IMG/VR virus record: IMGVR_UViG_2529292726_000019
Origin: a virus
Taxonomy: Duplodnaviria; Heunggongvirae; Uroviricota; Caudoviricetes
DNA length: 46,731 nucleotides
Reading direction: 5' to 3' (one strand)
The notes beneath the pieces are model-generated. The model worked only from the letters and a program-made list of their open reading frames with translations. It did not search any database and was not told the DNA's origin. The stretch's first letter is position 1, and every line of letters starts with the position of its first letter. Below are positions 1 through 46,731 of this stretch, piece after piece. Both the position numbers and the translations under genes were made by a program.

Positions 1-204
1 TGTTGGTGTCAGAGCCGGCCTCTCTTTCAACAGAGGAACAAGCATGCTGTCCCACACAGCTTCCAGAGGATCTTTGCGTGTGCGCCAGTGCCGAACACTG
101 TTTTTTGCCCACTCTCCTTTTTCGATCCGACGACCAGAACGGACTGAGATACCAGCCTTCATGGCCGAGATATGCTGAGTTATACCTTTCTTACGCTGAG
201 TCAT
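1..204 (-). CDS. istA: IstA-like transposase, N-terminal fragment (ORF runs off the window start)
   Basis: Minus-strand ORF with ATG at 204-202 translating MTQRKKGITQHISAMKAGISVRSGRRIEKGEW..., an HTH-like N-terminus. Assignment rests mainly on the adjacent IS21-like terminal repeat. Confidence 0.35.
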   Translation of the reverse strand, partial: MTQRKKGITQHISAMKAGISVRSGRRIEKGEWAKNSVRHWRTRKDPLEAVWDSMLVPLLKERPALTPT

Positions 205-338
205 ATAGTAACTGACCTGAGAAGTATTGAGCGTCACGCCATTTCCTGTTGGATCATGTAAATGACACTCAGGTTACAAAACCGGCCAGAATAATCGGCG
301 CCAGGCGGACTGAGTTATTGTCGTCTCATAGAGAGGAT
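1..338 (-). mobile_element. IS21-family insertion sequence, partial left-hand copy: terminal inverted-repeat region (about 205-338) plus 5' end of istA
   Basis: Plus 281-338 is about 70% identical to the reverse complement of plus 46362-46425 (cggccag..ata..ggcgc..cgtct..atag..gga), as expected for the IRL and IRR of one IS type. The right-hand copy carries an IstB-like ORF. Confidence 0.45.
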
Positions 339-679
339 TTAAGCCCGGCAATTTCACGATCTTTGCTGGCAATAATCGTCTCACTTTTGTTACCGTCATC
401 AGTTTCTTGAGTCTCGCTCACCATATCCAAAGTCGCTTGCAACTTATCAGCTCTCTCTTTTTCAGCAAGGTAATGAACACCGAAATGGTGTGCCAAAGCT
501 ACAATCTGAGTTGGCTCTTCAAAGGTGGAATTAAAATTAAGTATTGTAAACAGTCTCTCAAATATGGAAACGTCTTCTATTCCTCGAAGAATGGCTAACA
601 TTTTGACCAGTTCATTAGCATCCATTTCTTCGAATAAGGCGTTTTGTTCATCAGCTATTGCTTTGCATTTCTCGCACAT
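326..679 (-). CDS. hypothetical protein (117 aa)
   Basis: ORF preceded by the conserved start region (AAGGAAAACAC-ATG) and the upstream AAACAAGTTGTTTT motif. Its 3' end abuts the IS terminus. Confidence 0.5.
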   Translation of the reverse strand: MCEKCKAIADEQNALFEEMDANELVKMLAILRGIEDVSIFERLFTILNFNSTFEEPTQIVALAHHFGVHYLAEKERADKLQATLDMVSETQETDDGNKSETIIASKDREIAGLKSSL

Positions 680-976
680 GTGTTTTCCTTAATGCTTAAA
701 CAAGTTGTTTTCTTATTGGTTTTATTGTGATGTGGCATAAAAGGGGAGCAAGCTAAACGTAAAGGTGCAAACTCTCTATTTCGGTCAACGAAATACAAGG
801 GCCATTTGGCCCTTGTCATTAACACTTTGCTTTACGAACTAACGGATAAGCGAAGTAGATCGCCAAACCAATGAGGACGCCATCAGAAATGACAGACATC
901 ATCTTTCCCGTAAAATCCACCAACACCGCCATCACCAGAAGAGCAATGACGATCACAAGCCGGAATCTCTCAAGCA

Positions 977-12399: not shown

Positions 12400-12481
12400 G
12401 TGTTTTTCCTTTTTCTTTTTTGGTGCGTTTAAACAAGTTGTTATCTTATGTGTTTAAACAAGGCTTACAAATCAAAGAGAA

Positions 12482-23852: not shown

Positions 23853-23906
23853 GTTTTCTTATCCTTTTAAACAAATTGTTTTCTTAATAAGATAATTGCG
23901 ATAAAA

Positions 23907-39959: not shown

Positions 39960-40035
39960 GAATTTTGCGCTGAAAAAAAAGTGTTGCTAGGATGTTAGCA
40001 AGCTATGGTTAAGAACGTCTGCCGTAATTGTCTAT

Positions 40036-40113
40036 CACAGCGTTGAGCGGTCTGGTTTATGTTAGCGGAGTCTTAATCTGGGTGATTAAAAGGCCAAACC
40101 GCTCAACGCTGTG
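40036..40113 (-). ncRNA. long hairpin (16-bp perfect stem, about 46-nt loop) abutting the 3' end of tRNA-Ser
   Basis: cacagcgttgagcggt...accgctcaacgctgtg. Confidence 0.3.
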
Positions 40114-40115
40114 TC

Positions 40116-40202
40116 TGGCGGAGAGTAATGGAATCGAACCATCATCGCTTGCGCAATGGGACGGTTTTCAAGACCGCTTGAGCACCATGCTCCCTACTCT
40201 CC
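40116..40202 (-). tRNA. tRNA-Ser (anticodon TGA), class II with long variable arm
   Basis: Acceptor GGAGAGT/ACTCTCC, anticodon loop CTTGAAA, T-loop TTCGATT, encoded CCA. Confidence 0.7.
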
Positions 40203-40346
40203 GGCCGTTGTGGTGGCCGGGACTGAATCTCCGGCATACGGTGCAGCCAATTAGGACTACGGACGATCACCGCTCGCGAAAGGGAAGATTTGCGGCCGCA
40301 TTTCCCTAACATCCAAGAAAGCTATCGCATCAGTCTGCGAATCCAC

Positions 40347-40425
40347 CACAACGGTAAGATCACTACCTTTCGACCAGTCATTGTGCACATGAACGACGAT
40401 TAACCGTAATGATCTTATCGTTGTG
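40347..40425 (-). ncRNA. structured hairpin element 1 (stem cacaacggtaagatca / tgatcttatcgttgtg)
   Basis: About 79-nt imperfect hairpin; paralogous to element 2 and sharing the 3' flank gttgtgttg. Confidence 0.3.
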
Positions 40426-40476
40426 TTGTGAAGCCAGATGCTTATCTTCTGGTTGCCTCAAAGAGCTGCACTTCCT

Positions 40477-40565
40477 CACAACGGTAAGAGCACTGGTCTG
40501 ACTCTATCGATTTACGGGCTTGTGGGTCAGTATCGCCGATTCGCCCAATGCACTTACCTGTTGTG
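40477..40565 (-). ncRNA. structured hairpin element 2 (stem cacaacggtaag / cttacctgttgtg) abutting the 3' end of tRNA-Thr
   Basis: About 89-nt imperfect hairpin; does not fold as a tRNA by eye. Confidence 0.3.
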
Positions 40566-40566
40566 T

Positions 40567-40643
40567 TGGTGCCGGTTAACGGACTCGAACCGCTGACATC
40601 CTGCTTACAAGGCAGGCGCTCTACCAACTGAGCTAAACCGGCA
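40567..40643 (-). tRNA. tRNA-Thr (anticodon TGT)
   Basis: Reverse complement TGCCGGTTTAGCTCAGTTGGTAGAGCGCCTGCCTTGTAAGCAGGATGTCAGCGGTTCGAGTCCGTTAACCGGCACCA folds as a cloverleaf. Confidence 0.8.
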
Positions 40644-40646
40644 ATT

Positions 40647-40733
40647 TGGTGGGGAGTGATGGAGTCGAACCACCCGAGTCGCCATGACAGTAGATTTACA
40701 GTCTACCCCGCTGCCCCTACGGACTAACTCCCC
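40647..40733 (-). tRNA. tRNA-Tyr (anticodon GTA), long variable arm
   Basis: Acceptor GGGGAGT/ACTCCCC, anticodon stem-loop GTAGA-CTGTAAA-TCTAC, T-loop TTCGACT, CCA encoded. Confidence 0.8.
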
Positions 40734-40738
40734 TAAAT

Positions 40739-40813
40739 TGGCGATGGTGGGTGGATTCGAACCACCGACCAGTTGGTTAACAGCCAACTGCTCTACCGCT
40801 GAGCTACACCATC
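40739..40813 (-). tRNA. tRNA-Asn (anticodon GTT)
   Basis: Reverse complement GATGGTGTAGCTCAGCGGTAGAGCAGTTGGCTGTTAACCAACTGGTCGGTGGTTCGAATCCACCCACCATCGCCA. Confidence 0.8.
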
Positions 40814-41591
40814 AATTCAGCACTGCCAGTATTTATTACTCAACAGTGCCAATCGCGACGGTTTAGTTTCTGCCAGGAAACGCACCGCTACTTGCACTTT
40901 TCGTTAGTGCCAGACGCTTTCGACTTCGCTCAATAGTAGAAGGCAAAATCTTTAAGTAGATGATGTTTCTGAGGACAGCACCTACTTTGTAATTTATACA
41001 ATGTGATGTATGGAATCATTTGTTGTGAAAACAGGCACCAATGGCAACAGTGGTTAAACCTACACAACAATCCTGTCTTCACAACGTTGAGGCCACTACT
41101 CCGATTGAATGTTTGCCCAACATGTTACATATCAACGCTCGCCGGTATCTCTGTGAATAGAACCTTAGAATTGATAAAAATGTAATGGCCTCAACGTTAT
41201 GTGCTGGCTAACCATACCAGCCGGGCTACGTCGCCGCTTTTTAACCCAGTATAAACGACATAATTGAACAAAATGACGTAACAGGATGGGCGGTCAGTGG
41301 CTAAGAATCCGGGAGTCATATGGAGTTGAAAATATACCAACCGCCCATTCTGTTACTTCATCGGAGGGAACATGAATGTTCCCTCCTGCGTTCTGCAATC
41401 ACACTCGCTCAGTGTGTCCCATTTCGGTAACGAGGCTGGAAACTGACCTCGCTGGTGTTTGGCTTATTAGGCTACTGCCAGATAGACTTCTTCGTTTGCA
41501 CTTGTATTTAAGTTCAAACAGTCGCGTCTCAACGAAAACAAAGTCATCTTATACACAAAAGATAAGTAAGTAAATACTTATCAATATGTTT

Positions 41592-45042: not shown

Positions 45043-45117
45043 ACCAACTCCTAGCTAACAGATGAAAGTATTCTCACAGAAAGATAAGTAATCATCTACT
45101 TATTTTGAAGGTGATTG

Positions 45118-46299
45118 TTATGATAGAGCCTTAATGCCCAAAACCTTGCTTTGCAACTCCAACTGCTTGGTATACGGTTTTGCCCGATAATAGGCTTTGA
45201 TGATTTGCTCTGGCGTTGCATCGCCCGGGTCGAGTCCTTCCTCACCCAAACACGCAACTTTGACATTAAGACCGATACTGGTCAGTCGCCTGGCTGCGGC
45301 CATAGTGTTGCGTATAGCTTGCTTTTCACTATCCCACATCATGATCACATTACGTAACCCACGCGCCTTGAGCGTCAGGAACGCGCCTAACTGATCTTCT
45401 GCATCCTGAGTGGTGTTACCAGATAGATGCATCCCGAACGTTCCTATTGGTTCCACGTAATCACGTAATGTTTCTTCGTCAAAAATAGCTCGTTTAACCC
45501 CCATAACATCGAACGCCCCCTCACAGACAACTACAGTCTGTTTGCCGACTGCATTATGGCCGTTGTAGAGAAACTTACCTGAAGCTGGAAGTTGCATAGG
45601 AAAGAGGTAGCGGCGTTCTGCTGTACCGGTAATGTCTCGTCCCTGAAATGTCTTCATTACCCCATCCAGATCGTAAACCGGTATCAGTATTCGCATATCG
45701 AATATCTGTCCTTTAACCTGATCTGTATACGGATCTACATAGGCGTGCTTGCCTTCGACGCAGTATCGTAGGTCAAAATACTTTGCCATTTCAGGCGATA
45801 TGTTTCGTTCAACCAGATAGTCTGGAAGACGGCCATCTATAGGAAGCTCGTAATGACGAGGGAGTGCAACTGGCCCCTCTAACTCGACTGTGCTTGCAAG
45901 CACTAGCTCTTCTTTCTTTGGTGCCCACCCCTGGGAAAGAAGGGCGTTCTGCACATATTCCTCGAACTGTCGTCGTGATTTGCCGCTGTAGTGCTTGAGG
46001 AAGACCAGCTTATTGAACTGAATCTCTTCGGGATGATCACCAGCGAAGCATTTACCGACACCACTGGTCAGATTGAAATATACCTTCCAGTTGGAGCTGC
46101 CACATACCGGACACTCCTTGATATTCACTTCATGACCGCGAGTACTCACGCCTCCACGTCGATAAACGATACCTTCAGTATCCAACCATTGTTCAAAATC
46201 TAATTCGGTAATTAGCTCTTTCAGCTCGCTCACGATAATTCCACTTTTAACAGGCAATATTGTGACCAACCTAAATGTTGATATAACATAAAGGCTCAT
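45118..46299 (-). CDS. DNA primase (DnaG-like, zinc finger plus Toprim)
   Basis: CPVCGSSNWKV zinc-binding motif and Toprim-like VVVCEGAFDVMGV...MMWDSEKQ. Start moved to ATG 46299 (MSLYV) because it carries the conserved start region. Confidence 0.7.
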   Translation of the reverse strand: MSLYVISTFRLVTILPVKSGIIVSELKELITELDFEQWLDTEGIVYRRGGVSTRGHEVNIKECPVCGSSNWKVYFNLTSGVGKCFAGDHPEEIQFNKLVFLKHYSGKSRRQFEEYVQNALLSQGWAPKKEELVLASTVELEGPVALPRHYELPIDGRLPDYLVERNISPEMAKYFDLRYCVEGKHAYVDPYTDQVKGQIFDMRILIPVYDLDGVMKTFQGRDITGTAERRYLFPMQLPASGKFLYNGHNAVGKQTVVVCEGAFDVMGVKRAIFDEETLRDYVEPIGTFGMHLSGNTTQDAEDQLGAFLTLKARGLRNVIMMWDSEKQAIRNTMAAARRLTSIGLNVKVACLGEEGLDPGDATPEQIIKAYYRAKPYTKQLELQSKVLGIKALS

Positions 46300-46361
46300 G
46301 TGTTTTTCTTTTGTGGTTTGGCAAAAGAAAAGTTGTTTCACCAATGAATCAAGCGTGGAGG

Positions 46362-46731
46362 TGTTCTCCACTATTAGACGTCAACTAGTTTTGCCGACTC
46401 GCGCCAACTATACTGGCCGCACCCTTCAGTGCGACATCAAGTCGCGCTTGTTACTGCCTTCGCTGTCTTTTTCCTGTAGCTTTCACCTTTCAGTTCGAAC
46501 ATATATCCGTGATGGATCAGCCGGTCTGCCGCCGCCACCGCCATAGTCTCATCCACGAAGATGCTGCCCCACATGCTGAACGGATGGTTACTGGTTATCA
46601 CCAGGCTCCCACGTTCATAGCGATGCGCTATTAACTCGAACAGTACTCCCGTTTCGGCGCTGTCGCGTTTGACATAGCCAAGATCATCCACCACTATCAC
46701 ACGGTATCGATCCAGTTTCAGTAGCAGCTCA
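46362..46731 (-). mobile_element. IS21-family insertion sequence, partial right-hand copy: terminal inverted repeat (46362 to about 46436) plus 3' end of istB
   Basis: Terminus TGTTCTCC... is an inverted-repeat match to the left window end and is followed by an IstB-like ORF. Confidence 0.55.
46437..46731 (-). CDS. istB: IstB-like ATP-binding transposition helper, C-terminal fragment (ORF runs off the window end)
   Basis: DDLGY...ITSNHPFSMWGSIF...DRLIHHGYMFELKGESYR resembles the IstB C-terminus (DExx box, TSN, RLxHH, GESYR). Confidence 0.6.
   Translation of the reverse strand, partial: ELLLKLDRYRVIVVDDLGYVKRDSAETGVLFELIAHRYERGSLVITSNHPFSMWGSIFVDETMAVAAADRLIHHGYMFELKGESYRKKTAKAVTSAT

What the first reader, a model, noticed from the sequence alone, without database searches (positions are those of the whole stretch)
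46300..46436. IS insertion truncates the upstream region of the primase gene
The primase keeps its conserved start region (46297-46320) but the IS terminus lies only about 60 bp upstream at 46362, cutting through a partial AAACAAGTTGTTT-like motif (46328-46339). Primase expression must then depend on read-through or an outward promoter from the IS end.
Basis: partly seen in the sequence, partly recalled or inferred. Interest (0 to 1): 0.45.

Follow-up and report, generated by a model that had tools for sequence, protein, structure and literature searches.

The report
ISEc10 inserted between helicase and primase
A common E. coli jumping gene (ISEc10) has landed in the short spacer between the helicase and primase genes of an SSU5-type phage-plasmid; this is an ordinary event, but it cuts a conserved hairpin that in relatives looks like the terminator of an undescribed small antisense RNA.

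Summary
About 900 IS-free phage-plasmids and phages match the window without interruption up to base 46371. ISEc10 (IS21 family, 2410 bp) begins at 46372, not 46362. Its 6-bp target duplication is CTCCAC (46366-46371). The AAACAAGTTGTTT-like site (46326-46338) is intact native sequence 33 bp from the IS, so it is not cut.

The IS sits 10 bp downstream of the stop codon of a DnaB-like helicase gene, inside a conserved hairpin. All 138 bp upstream of the primase GTG (46233) survive, including the ATG at 46299 and its ribosome-binding region. The primase is now 2.4 kb from the helicase. The IS points the same way and shows no strong terminator, so read-through is plausible. No outward hybrid promoter is formed.

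Side lead: in IS-free relatives the hairpin has its T-run only on the strand opposite the genes. A conserved -35/-10 pair lies about 90 nt upstream of it on that strand. This predicts a roughly 90-nt antisense RNA over the primase leader's start region. The window has lost that RNA's terminator. Expression is untested.

Verdict: an ordinary IS insertion, of low interest. The RNA lead is moderate.

The parts
45118..46233 (-). Primase gene (371 aa, GTG start), with DnaG-type catalytic core and Toprim domains. It is intact.
   Evidence: ORF list. CP056801 and Cyrano annotate this start. The start codon is conserved as GTG or ATG in all clades. Pfam DNAG_N and Toprim_2 match at about cutoff. The sequence is 100% identical to the IS-free relative.
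46234..46299 (-). Leader ORF or N-terminal extension (MSLYVISTFRLVTILPVKSGII) starting at ATG 46299. It is in frame with the primase in this E. coli type.
   Evidence: In Klebsiella, Kluyvera and Buttiauxella types the ORF is out of frame and stops 5 nt before to 5 nt after the first base of the primase start codon. It is absent or truncated in some clades. Substitutions by codon position are 17/21/21, so there is no protein-level constraint.
46300..46320 (-). Translation initiation region CAAACCACAAAAGAAAAACAC upstream of ATG 46299.
   Evidence: The region is conserved in relatives. A start-region block with the core AACACATG (fullest form CCACAAAAGGAAAAACACATG) recurs at nine sites on the gene strand of the window.
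46260..46287 (+). Candidate promoter of the antisense RNA: TTGTGA, 16 nt, TATAAC with TG upstream. It lies inside the leader ORF.
   Evidence: The hexamers are conserved as TTGAta and TAcCAT, with a variable spacer of constant length, across 30 sequence variants. Some E. coli variants have a perfect TATAAT. The simple scan does not call it, because it requires a T at position 6 of the second hexamer.
46293..46371 (+). Candidate antisense RNA, truncated. It has a 5' single-stranded GGCUCAUGUG complementary to ATG 46299, stem-loop 1 (46303-46332), a linker, and the remnant of the terminator stem.
   Evidence: Covariance model R1 gives one hit in the window, 46290-46378 (+), at 58.3 bits, against 89.3 bits for intact copies. 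Folding is shown.
46326..46338 (.). Degenerate AAACAAnTTGTTT-like site (AGAAAAGTTGTTT, 2 mismatches). It is native and uncut.
   Evidence: The site is identical in IS-free relatives. It lies in the most variable part of the spacer.
46351..46371 (.). Remnant of the conserved hairpin AAGCGTGGAG-GTGTT-CTCCAC. The last 4 stem bases (GCTT) and the T-run now lie on the far side of the IS.
   Evidence: The native sequence is. A terminator is called on the + strand in the IS-free relative and none is called in the window. The stem drops from 10 to 6 bp.
46366..46371 (.). One copy of the 6-bp target-site duplication, CTCCAC.
   Evidence: In CP025888.1 both IS flanks carry CTCCAC. Four other ISEc10 copies also have 6-bp duplications.
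46372..46731 (-). istB-proximal (right) end of ISEc10, cut by the window end. The istB 3' part occupies 46437-46731.
1..330 (-). istA-proximal (left) end of a second ISEc10 copy in the same orientation. Its duplication GAGAGG is at 331-336.

Best explanation
Shown:
- The window comes from an SSU5/pHCM2-type phage-plasmid of E. coli.
- A complete ISEc10 (IS21 family, 2410 bp, istA-istB) transposed into the 147-bp spacer between the DnaB-like helicase gene and the primase gene. It made a 6-bp duplication (CTCCAC).
- The IS end is at window 46372. It has the same orientation as the flanking genes.
- The insertion point is 10 bp downstream of the helicase stop codon, inside the 3' arm of a conserved hairpin.
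- Both genes stay intact. So do the 138 bp upstream of the primase GTG, including the leader ATG (46299) and its ribosome-binding region.

Inferred:
- No sigma-70-like promoter is visible on the gene strand in the retained spacer. A start-associated motif sits in front of the helicase. The primase is therefore normally co-transcribed with the helicase.
- It now lies 2.4 kb further from that promoter. It is probably still transcribed by read-through across the IS, which has the same orientation, no strong terminator and translated istAB. Transcription may also come from the IS's own istAB promoter.
- The IS end does not create an outward hybrid promoter.
- The hairpin that was cut is an intrinsic terminator for the opposite strand. 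It most likely ends a roughly 90-nt antisense RNA that covers the leader's start codon and ribosome-binding region. In the window this RNA has lost its terminator and would run into the IS, antisense to istB.
For: IS identity and ends:
- The IS is 100% identical over 2410 bp to RefSeq-annotated ISEc10.
- Five copies share the same ends and each has a 6-bp duplication.

Native state:
- Homology with IS-free relatives stops at 46371.
- 712 plasmids carry helicase, spacer and primase contiguously.
- CP025888.1 carries the same insertion with both flanks.

Genes intact.

Promoters and terminators:
- No promoter or terminator is called in 45900-46731.
- Inside the IS, only one weak gene-strand terminator-like site is called, which is within chance expectation.
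- A motif plus ribosome-binding region lies directly upstream of the helicase.

Antisense RNA:
- The + strand terminator is present in the relative and lost in the window.
- The hairpin with a T-run on the antisense strand is kept in all 31 variants despite sequence change.
- 88% of cells pair, against about 55% when partners are slid. Six pairs show compensatory change.
- 44 G.U cells against 5 A.C cells favour the antisense strand.
- The -35 and -10 hexamers are conserved with a variable spacer.
- The native fold has z = -4.5; the window version has z = -1.9.
- The covariance-model score falls from 89.3 to 58.3 bits.
Against: - No expression data exist for any transcript here. Promoter and terminator calls are consensus matches only.
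- The antisense promoter is moderate (4/6 and 5/6 matches) and the simple scan does not call it.
- Covariation cells are not independent events, and the helix cores never vary. RNAalifold on its own recovers only the terminator helix.
- Part of the conserved block is equally well explained as a ribosome-binding region that this phage reuses at about nine gene starts.
- A primase-specific promoter of a non-sigma-70 type cannot be excluded. One possibility is a promoter linked to the degenerate palindrome at 46326-46338.
- The arrangement is not seen in the Xenorhabdus or Aeromonas relatives.
Confidence: 0.8

Rival explanations
1. The IS end is at 46362 and cuts a promoter or operator palindrome, so primase expression now depends on an outward promoter in the IS end.
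For: The IS end does contain TTGACG 7 nt from its tip. IS21-type elements are known to carry an outward -35 that works in tandem copies (established knowledge, not tested here). A palindrome, AAACAAnTTGTTT, really does recur upstream of gene starts in the window.
Against: The terminus is at 46372. The site at 46326-46338 is complete, native and 33 bp from the IS. It has 2 mismatches, lies in the least conserved part of the spacer and is missing in the Klebsiella type. No -10 lies 16-18 nt after TTGACG, and the scan finds no promoter. In an unrelated locus, ISEc10 did not activate neighbouring transcription (PMC8764528).
Confidence: 0.07
2. The primase has its own promoter within the retained 138 bp, so the insertion has little effect on primase expression.
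For: The whole conserved spacer downstream of the hairpin is retained. A degenerate start-associated palindrome lies 26 nt upstream of the leader ATG, a distance like that at other gene starts. The plasmid with the insertion is stably maintained and occurs in at least two near-identical records.
Against: No sigma-70-like promoter appears on the gene strand in the spacer, either in the window or in IS-free relatives. The palindrome-like site is not conserved between clades. Plasmid maintenance need not require the primase, because a separate plasmid replicon is typed (rep_cluster_488).
Confidence: 0.25
3. The conserved hairpin and its flanks are a DNA-level replication element, such as a lytic origin or a primase/helicase loading site, and not an RNA terminator. 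On this view the IS disrupts lytic replication in cis.
For: The element lies between the helicase and primase genes. The stem core GGCGTGG/CCACGCC is invariant rather than covarying, and an A/T-rich tract lies next to it.
Against: The T-run is conserved only on one side of the hairpin. The 44:5 excess of G.U over A.C points to selection on one RNA strand. A conserved -35/-10 pair sits at the right distance upstream. No iterons or repeats were seen by eye in this 147-bp spacer (no repeat search was run).
Confidence: 0.08
4. There is no insertion and the apparent terminus is native sequence.
For: None.
Confidence: 0.01

Closest known systems
ISEc10 (IS21 family) insertions in E. coli chromosomes and plasmids, for example CFT073, pUTI89 and the afa/dr regulatory region of ST131
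   Same: The element is identical: 2410 bp, with istA (499 aa) and istB (251 aa), the same imperfect terminal repeats and a 6-bp target duplication.
   Different: The target is new. No other record among 5426 complete E. coli genomes has this junction. In PLSDB only CP025888.1 has it.
SSU5/pHCM2-type phage-plasmids (Salmonella phage SSU5, E. coli phage Cyrano/pLF82, PhiR41_1)
   Same: The replication module is collinear, with helicase, primase, two hypothetical genes and ligase. Identity is 98% to Cyrano and 80% to SSU5.
   Different: This copy carries two ISEc10 insertions 46 kb apart. The published relatives have none at these sites.
CopA/tap/repA control of plasmid R1 and Inc RNA/repY/repZ control of IncI/IncB plasmids: an antisense RNA blocks a leader peptide whose translation is coupled to the replication gene
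   Same: As predicted here, there is a roughly 90-nt antisense RNA with a stem-loop plus a terminator. It is encoded in the leader of a replication gene and is complementary to the start region of a roughly 22-codon leader ORF. In several clades that ORF stops within 5 nt of the downstream start codon.
   Different: No sequence or structure homology was found (no Rfam match). The target is a primase in a phage lytic-replication module, not a Rep initiator. The leader is fused in frame in the E. coli type and missing in some clades. Expression and function are untested.
The IS21 tandem-junction promoter: an outward -35 in the right end combined with a -10 in the adjoining left end
   Same: The ISEc10 right end carries TTGACG 7 nt from its tip. 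In a tandem junction with a 2-bp gap, the left end would supply GACAAT at a 17-nt spacing (read from the sequences).
   Different: Here the neighbour is native spacer DNA without a -10 at the required distance, so no such promoter is formed.

Membership tests
ISEc10 / IS21 family insertion sequence | Near-identity to the reference element over its full length | tested here: met
   The full copy in CP025888.1 is 100% identical over 2410 bp to RefSeq-annotated ISEc10. The window part 46372-46731 is 99.4% identical over 360 bp.
ISEc10 / IS21 family insertion sequence | Two consecutive genes, istA (transposase) and istB (helper ATPase) | tested here: met
   ORFs of 499 and 251 aa are present in L001. 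RefSeq names them istA and istB. The window holds the IstB C-terminus (Pfam IstB_IS21, 100.6 bits). istA lies outside the window at this end.
ISEc10 / IS21 family insertion sequence | Terminal inverted repeats and a short direct target duplication | tested here: met
   The ends are TATGAGACGACAA and TATTAGACGTCAA (imperfect repeat). Six independent insertions have 6-bp duplications, including CTCCAC here and GAGAGG at the second copy.
SSU5/pHCM2-type phage-plasmid | Collinear DNA homology with SSU5-type phages and phage-plasmids | tested here: met
   Only the last 1.6-6 kb of the window were compared. Identity is 98-100% to E. coli phage-plasmids and to phage Cyrano, and 80% to SSU5.
Intrinsic (Rho-independent) terminator | G+C-rich hairpin immediately followed by a U-run on the transcribed strand | tested here: not met
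   The window has a 6-bp remnant stem and no U-run, and the scan finds none. In IS-free relatives the feature is met on the + strand only, in 31 of 31 variants.
IS-generated outward or hybrid promoter | A -35 in the IS end combined with a -10 in flanking DNA at 16-18 nt | tested here: not met
   TTGACG is present, but the hexamers at 16, 17 and 18 nt are ACCTCC, CCTCCA and CTCCAC (sequence). No promoter is called.
CopA/Inc-type antisense control through a leader peptide | Antisense RNA transcribed opposite the leader of the replication gene | not testable with these tools
   Only sequence signals are available: conserved hexamers, a strand-specific terminator and the G.U bias. There are no expression data.
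CopA/Inc-type antisense control through a leader peptide | Leader ORF whose stop overlaps or abuts the start of the regulated gene | tested here: inconclusive
   The stop lies 5 nt before to 5 nt after the first base of the primase start codon in Klebsiella, Kluyvera and Buttiauxella types. The ORF is fused in frame in E. coli, Salmonella and Enterobacter types. It is absent or truncated in five variant groups.
CopA/Inc-type antisense control through a leader peptide | Homology to the CopA or Inc RNA families | tested here: not met
   The Rfam E-value search of the native spacer gave only sub-threshold chance-level hits, none to CopA or Inc RNA.

The most novel reading that the evidence does not exclude
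SSU5/pHCM2-type phage-plasmids of Enterobacteriaceae, found in hundreds of plasmids of E. coli, Klebsiella, Salmonella and Enterobacter, may encode an undescribed roughly 90-nt cis-antisense RNA in the helicase-primase spacer. It would pair with the ribosome-binding region and start codon of a short leader ORF and so set primase translation, in the manner of CopA/tap/repA. That could keep the lytic replication module quiet in the plasmid state. The ISEc10 copy in this window would be a natural mutant lacking the RNA's terminator.
Probability: 0.35. Interest if true: 0.5.

Novelty: already known. Interest (0 to 1): 0.25.

Why it matters
The insertion itself is routine. A well-known E. coli IS has landed in an intergenic spacer of a common phage-plasmid, and both neighbouring genes remain intact. 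Its practical value is as a marker and a natural experiment. It separates the primase and the downstream replication genes from the helicase, so it may weaken lytic replication of this phage-plasmid while leaving plasmid maintenance untouched.

The more useful outcome is the comparative picture of the native spacer. It shows a strand-specific terminator, a conserved antisense promoter and a leader ORF with a phage-typical ribosome-binding region. Together these give a concrete and cheaply testable hypothesis for RNA-level control of the replication module. The module belongs to a phage-plasmid family that is widespread in clinical Enterobacteriaceae and sometimes carries ESBL genes (PMC8085198).

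Tried and rejected
- Rfam: the native spacer gave no family near threshold.
- Literature: searches for SSU5, pHCM2, antisense RNA, small RNA and transcriptome terms found no description of an RNA or promoter here. The LF82/Cyrano paper reports gene-level transcriptomes only. Its highly expressed CYRAN_43 lies outside the stretch shown (CYRAN_26 to CYRAN_41), so it is not at this spacer.
- Hybrid promoter from the IS end: rejected, because there is no -10.
- Leader ORF as a conserved peptide: rejected as a protein-level constraint, because substitutions are spread 17/21/21 over codon positions. Translation itself remains plausible, because its ribosome-binding region matches eight other start-like sites on the gene strand of the window.
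- The palindrome-like site as a functional operator at this position: judged unlikely, given 2 mismatches, chance-level frequency and no conservation between clades.
- Deeper conservation: the Xenorhabdus relative has only a weak antisense hairpin plus T-run. The Aeromonas relative has two extra genes and no such terminator. The covariance model finds nothing in either.
- RNAalifold on all 22 variants recovered only the terminator helix. Stem-loop 1 had to be specified by hand.
- The genome-contig scan gave only 5 loci.

Full report
**What is at the coordinates**

The last 1.6 kb of the window holds a minus-strand ORF, 45118-46371. Downstream of 46437 it holds the C-terminal part of an IstB-like protein, also on the minus strand (Pfam IstB_IS21, 100.6 bits). 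The ORF is a primase with DNAG_N and Toprim_2 matches at about the Pfam cutoffs. Many relatives annotate it as a DNA primase.

**Is there an insertion, and where is its edge?**

- A megablast of 45100-46731 against phages and plasmids finds about 900 records whose match stops exactly at query base 1272, which is window 46371. These include phage Cyrano (98%), PhiR41_1 (98%) and SSU5 (80%).
- One record, CP025888.1, matches end to end. In it the extra DNA is 2410 bp, with ORFs of 499 and 251 aa.
- This DNA is 100% identical to elements that RefSeq names ISEc10, IS21 family, istA and istB. These occur in 899 of 5426 complete E. coli genomes.
- I compared five independent copies. The element always begins TATGAGACG and ends GACGTCTAATA, and it is always flanked by a 6-bp direct repeat: GTCTTC, CTGATC, GGCTCC, GGGATT, and here GTGGAG (CTCCAC on the + strand).
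- In window coordinates the IS therefore starts at 46372, and the duplication occupies 46366-46371.
Window 45100-46371 has no mismatch to the IS-free plasmid CP056801.
- No complete RefSeq E. coli genome has this junction.
- The window differs from CP025888.1 at four bases only. The same insertion therefore exists in at least two near-identical records.

**What was hit**

- In IS-free relatives the gene upstream of the primase is a DnaB-like helicase (Pfam DnaB_C; annotations). Its stop codon lies 10 bp beyond the insertion point.
- 712 plasmids carry the helicase end, the spacer and the primase start contiguously.
- The native sequence at the site is AAGCGTGGAG-GTGTT-CTCCACGCTT-ATTTTTT. The IS entered after CTCCAC. 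The window keeps a 6-bp stem and loses GCTT and the T-run.
- The helicase ORF (446 aa) is intact on the far side of the IS in CP025888.1.

**The primase start and what remains upstream**

- An alignment of nine clades and of 54 distinct spacers from 94 loci shows that the conserved primase start is the GTG at 46233. It is an ATG in Klebsiella, Kluyvera and Buttiauxella.
This ORF is in frame with the primase in the E. coli, Salmonella and Enterobacter types.
- In the Klebsiella, Kluyvera and Buttiauxella types it is out of frame and stops 5 nt before to 5 nt after the first base of the primase start codon. It is missing or truncated in five variant groups.
- Its substitutions show no third-position excess (17/21/21), so the peptide sequence is not under selection.
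- Its upstream block, CCACAAAAGAAAAACACATG, is conserved. A start-region block with the core AACACATG, fullest as CCACAAAAGGAAAAACACATG, recurs at nine sites on the gene strand in the window. ATG 46299 therefore looks like a genuine translation start.
- All of this, 138 bp in total, is retained.

**The palindrome**

- AAACAAnTTGTTT is real and enriched, with 11 strand-hits at up to 2 mismatches against 2.5 expected.
- On the gene strand it sits 16-31 nt upstream of start codons at 680, 1402, 12399, 23852 and, more weakly, 36247. Twice it lies just after a terminator.
- A perfect copy lies directly in front of the helicase start.
- The copy at 46326-46338 has two mismatches and lies in the least conserved stretch of the spacer. 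It is weaker still in the Salmonella type and absent in the Klebsiella type.
- It is complete and lies 33 bp from the IS, so the IS does not cut it.

**Consequences for primase expression (inferred)**

- No sigma-70-like promoter is called on either strand, in the retained spacer or in the native one. By eye I found none upstream of ATG 46299 on the gene strand. Co-transcription with the helicase is therefore the simplest native state.
- The IS has the same orientation as the operon. On that strand it contains only one weak terminator-like site, within chance expectation. Read-through from upstream, or from the istAB promoter, is plausible.
- The IS end carries TTGACG 7 nt from its tip. In a tandem junction with a 2-bp gap this would face GACAAT of the next copy at a 17-nt spacing (sequences). 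This fits the known IS21 junction-promoter design, which I take from established knowledge and did not test.
- Here the hexamers 16-18 nt downstream are ACCTCC, CCTCCA and CTCCAC, so no hybrid promoter is predicted.
- In a published case, ISEc10 in the afa regulatory region did not raise downstream transcription (PMC8764528).

**The side lead: a candidate antisense RNA**

- The native hairpin is scored as an intrinsic terminator only on the + strand, opposite to the genes. On the gene strand it is preceded by the A-run and followed by no U-run.
- The stronger (8-9-bp) hairpin terminators called in the scanned part of the window (1-40000) have their T-run on the gene strand or on both strands.
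- Across 31 distinct variants the stem sequence changes. The hairpin, and a run of 5-8 T ending in the complement of the helicase stop codon, are kept.
- About 90 nt upstream on the same strand lie conserved hexamers: TTGAta, 16 nt, TAcCAT. In E. coli these are TTGTGA, 16 nt, TATAAC, and some variants have a perfect TATAAT. The spacer between them is variable in sequence but constant in length.
- The predicted RNA has three parts. There is a conserved single-stranded 5' end, GGCUCAUGUG, complementary to the leader ATG. There is a U-rich stem-loop complementary to the leader's ribosome-binding region. The terminator follows.
- On a 22-variant alignment, 88% of cells pair against about 55% when partners are slid. 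Six pairs show changes on both sides. No shuffle reaches the observed covariation score.
- The usual caveats apply: the sequences are related and the helix cores do not vary.
- Non-Watson-Crick cells are G.U in this orientation 44 times and A.C 5 times. This favours the antisense strand as the structured RNA.
- A covariance model finds one copy per locus, always opposite to the primase. It scores 89.3 bits in intact E. coli-type copies and 58.3 bits in the window, where the 3' arm and U-run are missing.
- Rfam has no matching family. I found no description in the searchable literature.
- The layout resembles CopA/tap/repA of plasmid R1 and Inc RNA/repY/repZ. There is no homology to these, and the leader coupling is not universal. 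I file this as 'works like', not 'member of'.
- Expression is untested, and this is the main weakness.

**Wider context noticed**

- The window starts inside a second ISEc10 copy (1-330) in the same orientation, with its own intact duplication GAGAGG in CP025888.1. The window is exactly the 46-kb segment between two IS copies.
- That second copy truncates a minus-strand ORF that starts at 679.

**Verdict**

This is an ordinary insertion of a known IS into a known phage-plasmid family, with the edge at 46372. The interesting residue is the conserved antisense terminator and promoter that the comparison exposed.

Noticed in passing
window 1-336: The window begins inside a second ISEc10 copy: bases 1-330 are the reverse complement of IS nt 330-1, at 100% identity. 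It has the same orientation as the copy at 46372. In CP025888.1 this copy has its own intact 6-bp duplication, GAGAGG. The plasmid therefore carries two independent insertions 46,041 bp apart in direct orientation. These could serve as substrates for deletion or for composite-transposon behaviour. The window is exactly the segment between them.
   Followed up: partly
window 326-679 (minus strand): An ORF starting at ATG 679 (117 aa as read, no Pfam match) is interrupted by the first ISEc10 copy. It now ends at a stop codon inside the IS terminus. In the native sequence the reading frame continues.
   Followed up: partly
window 698-710, 1427-1439, 12431-12443, 23869-23881, 36267-36279; L001 11058-11070: The palindrome AAACAAnTTGTTT is usually preceded by (a/c)tAAGA. 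On the gene strand it lies 16-31 nt upstream of start codons of several minus-strand genes, including the helicase. Twice it lies directly after a terminator. It looks like a dispersed operator or promoter element of this phage-plasmid. Its binding factor is unknown.
   Followed up: partly
window 677, 12397, 19436, 23369, 24976, 28444, 32625, 43760, 46297 (CATGTGTT on + strand): Nine sites on the minus (gene) strand share a start-region block with the core AACACATG. Its fullest form, CCACAAAAGGAAAAACACATG, is much longer than a Shine-Dalgarno sequence. This suggests a phage-specific translation or regulatory signal.
   Followed up: no
window about 40000-41000: ORF-poor stretch. It corresponds in position (upstream of the DNA ligase gene) to the cluster of tRNA genes (Ser, Thr, Asn) annotated in phage Cyrano. 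tRNAs were not scanned here.
   Followed up: no
L104 (Aeromonas caviae plasmid NZ_CP068233.1) 3117-3440: A distant relative of this phage-plasmid family encodes an Hfq RNA chaperone immediately upstream of its DnaB-like helicase. It also has two extra small genes between helicase and primase.
   Followed up: no
L020 (Xenorhabdus szentirmaii) 1080-1200: In a relative whose primase is 56% identical, the helicase-primase spacer has an imperfect 9-bp hairpin followed by GTGTTTTTT on the antisense strand. This may be a faint echo of the antisense terminator. Neither the scan nor the covariance model calls it.
   Followed up: partly
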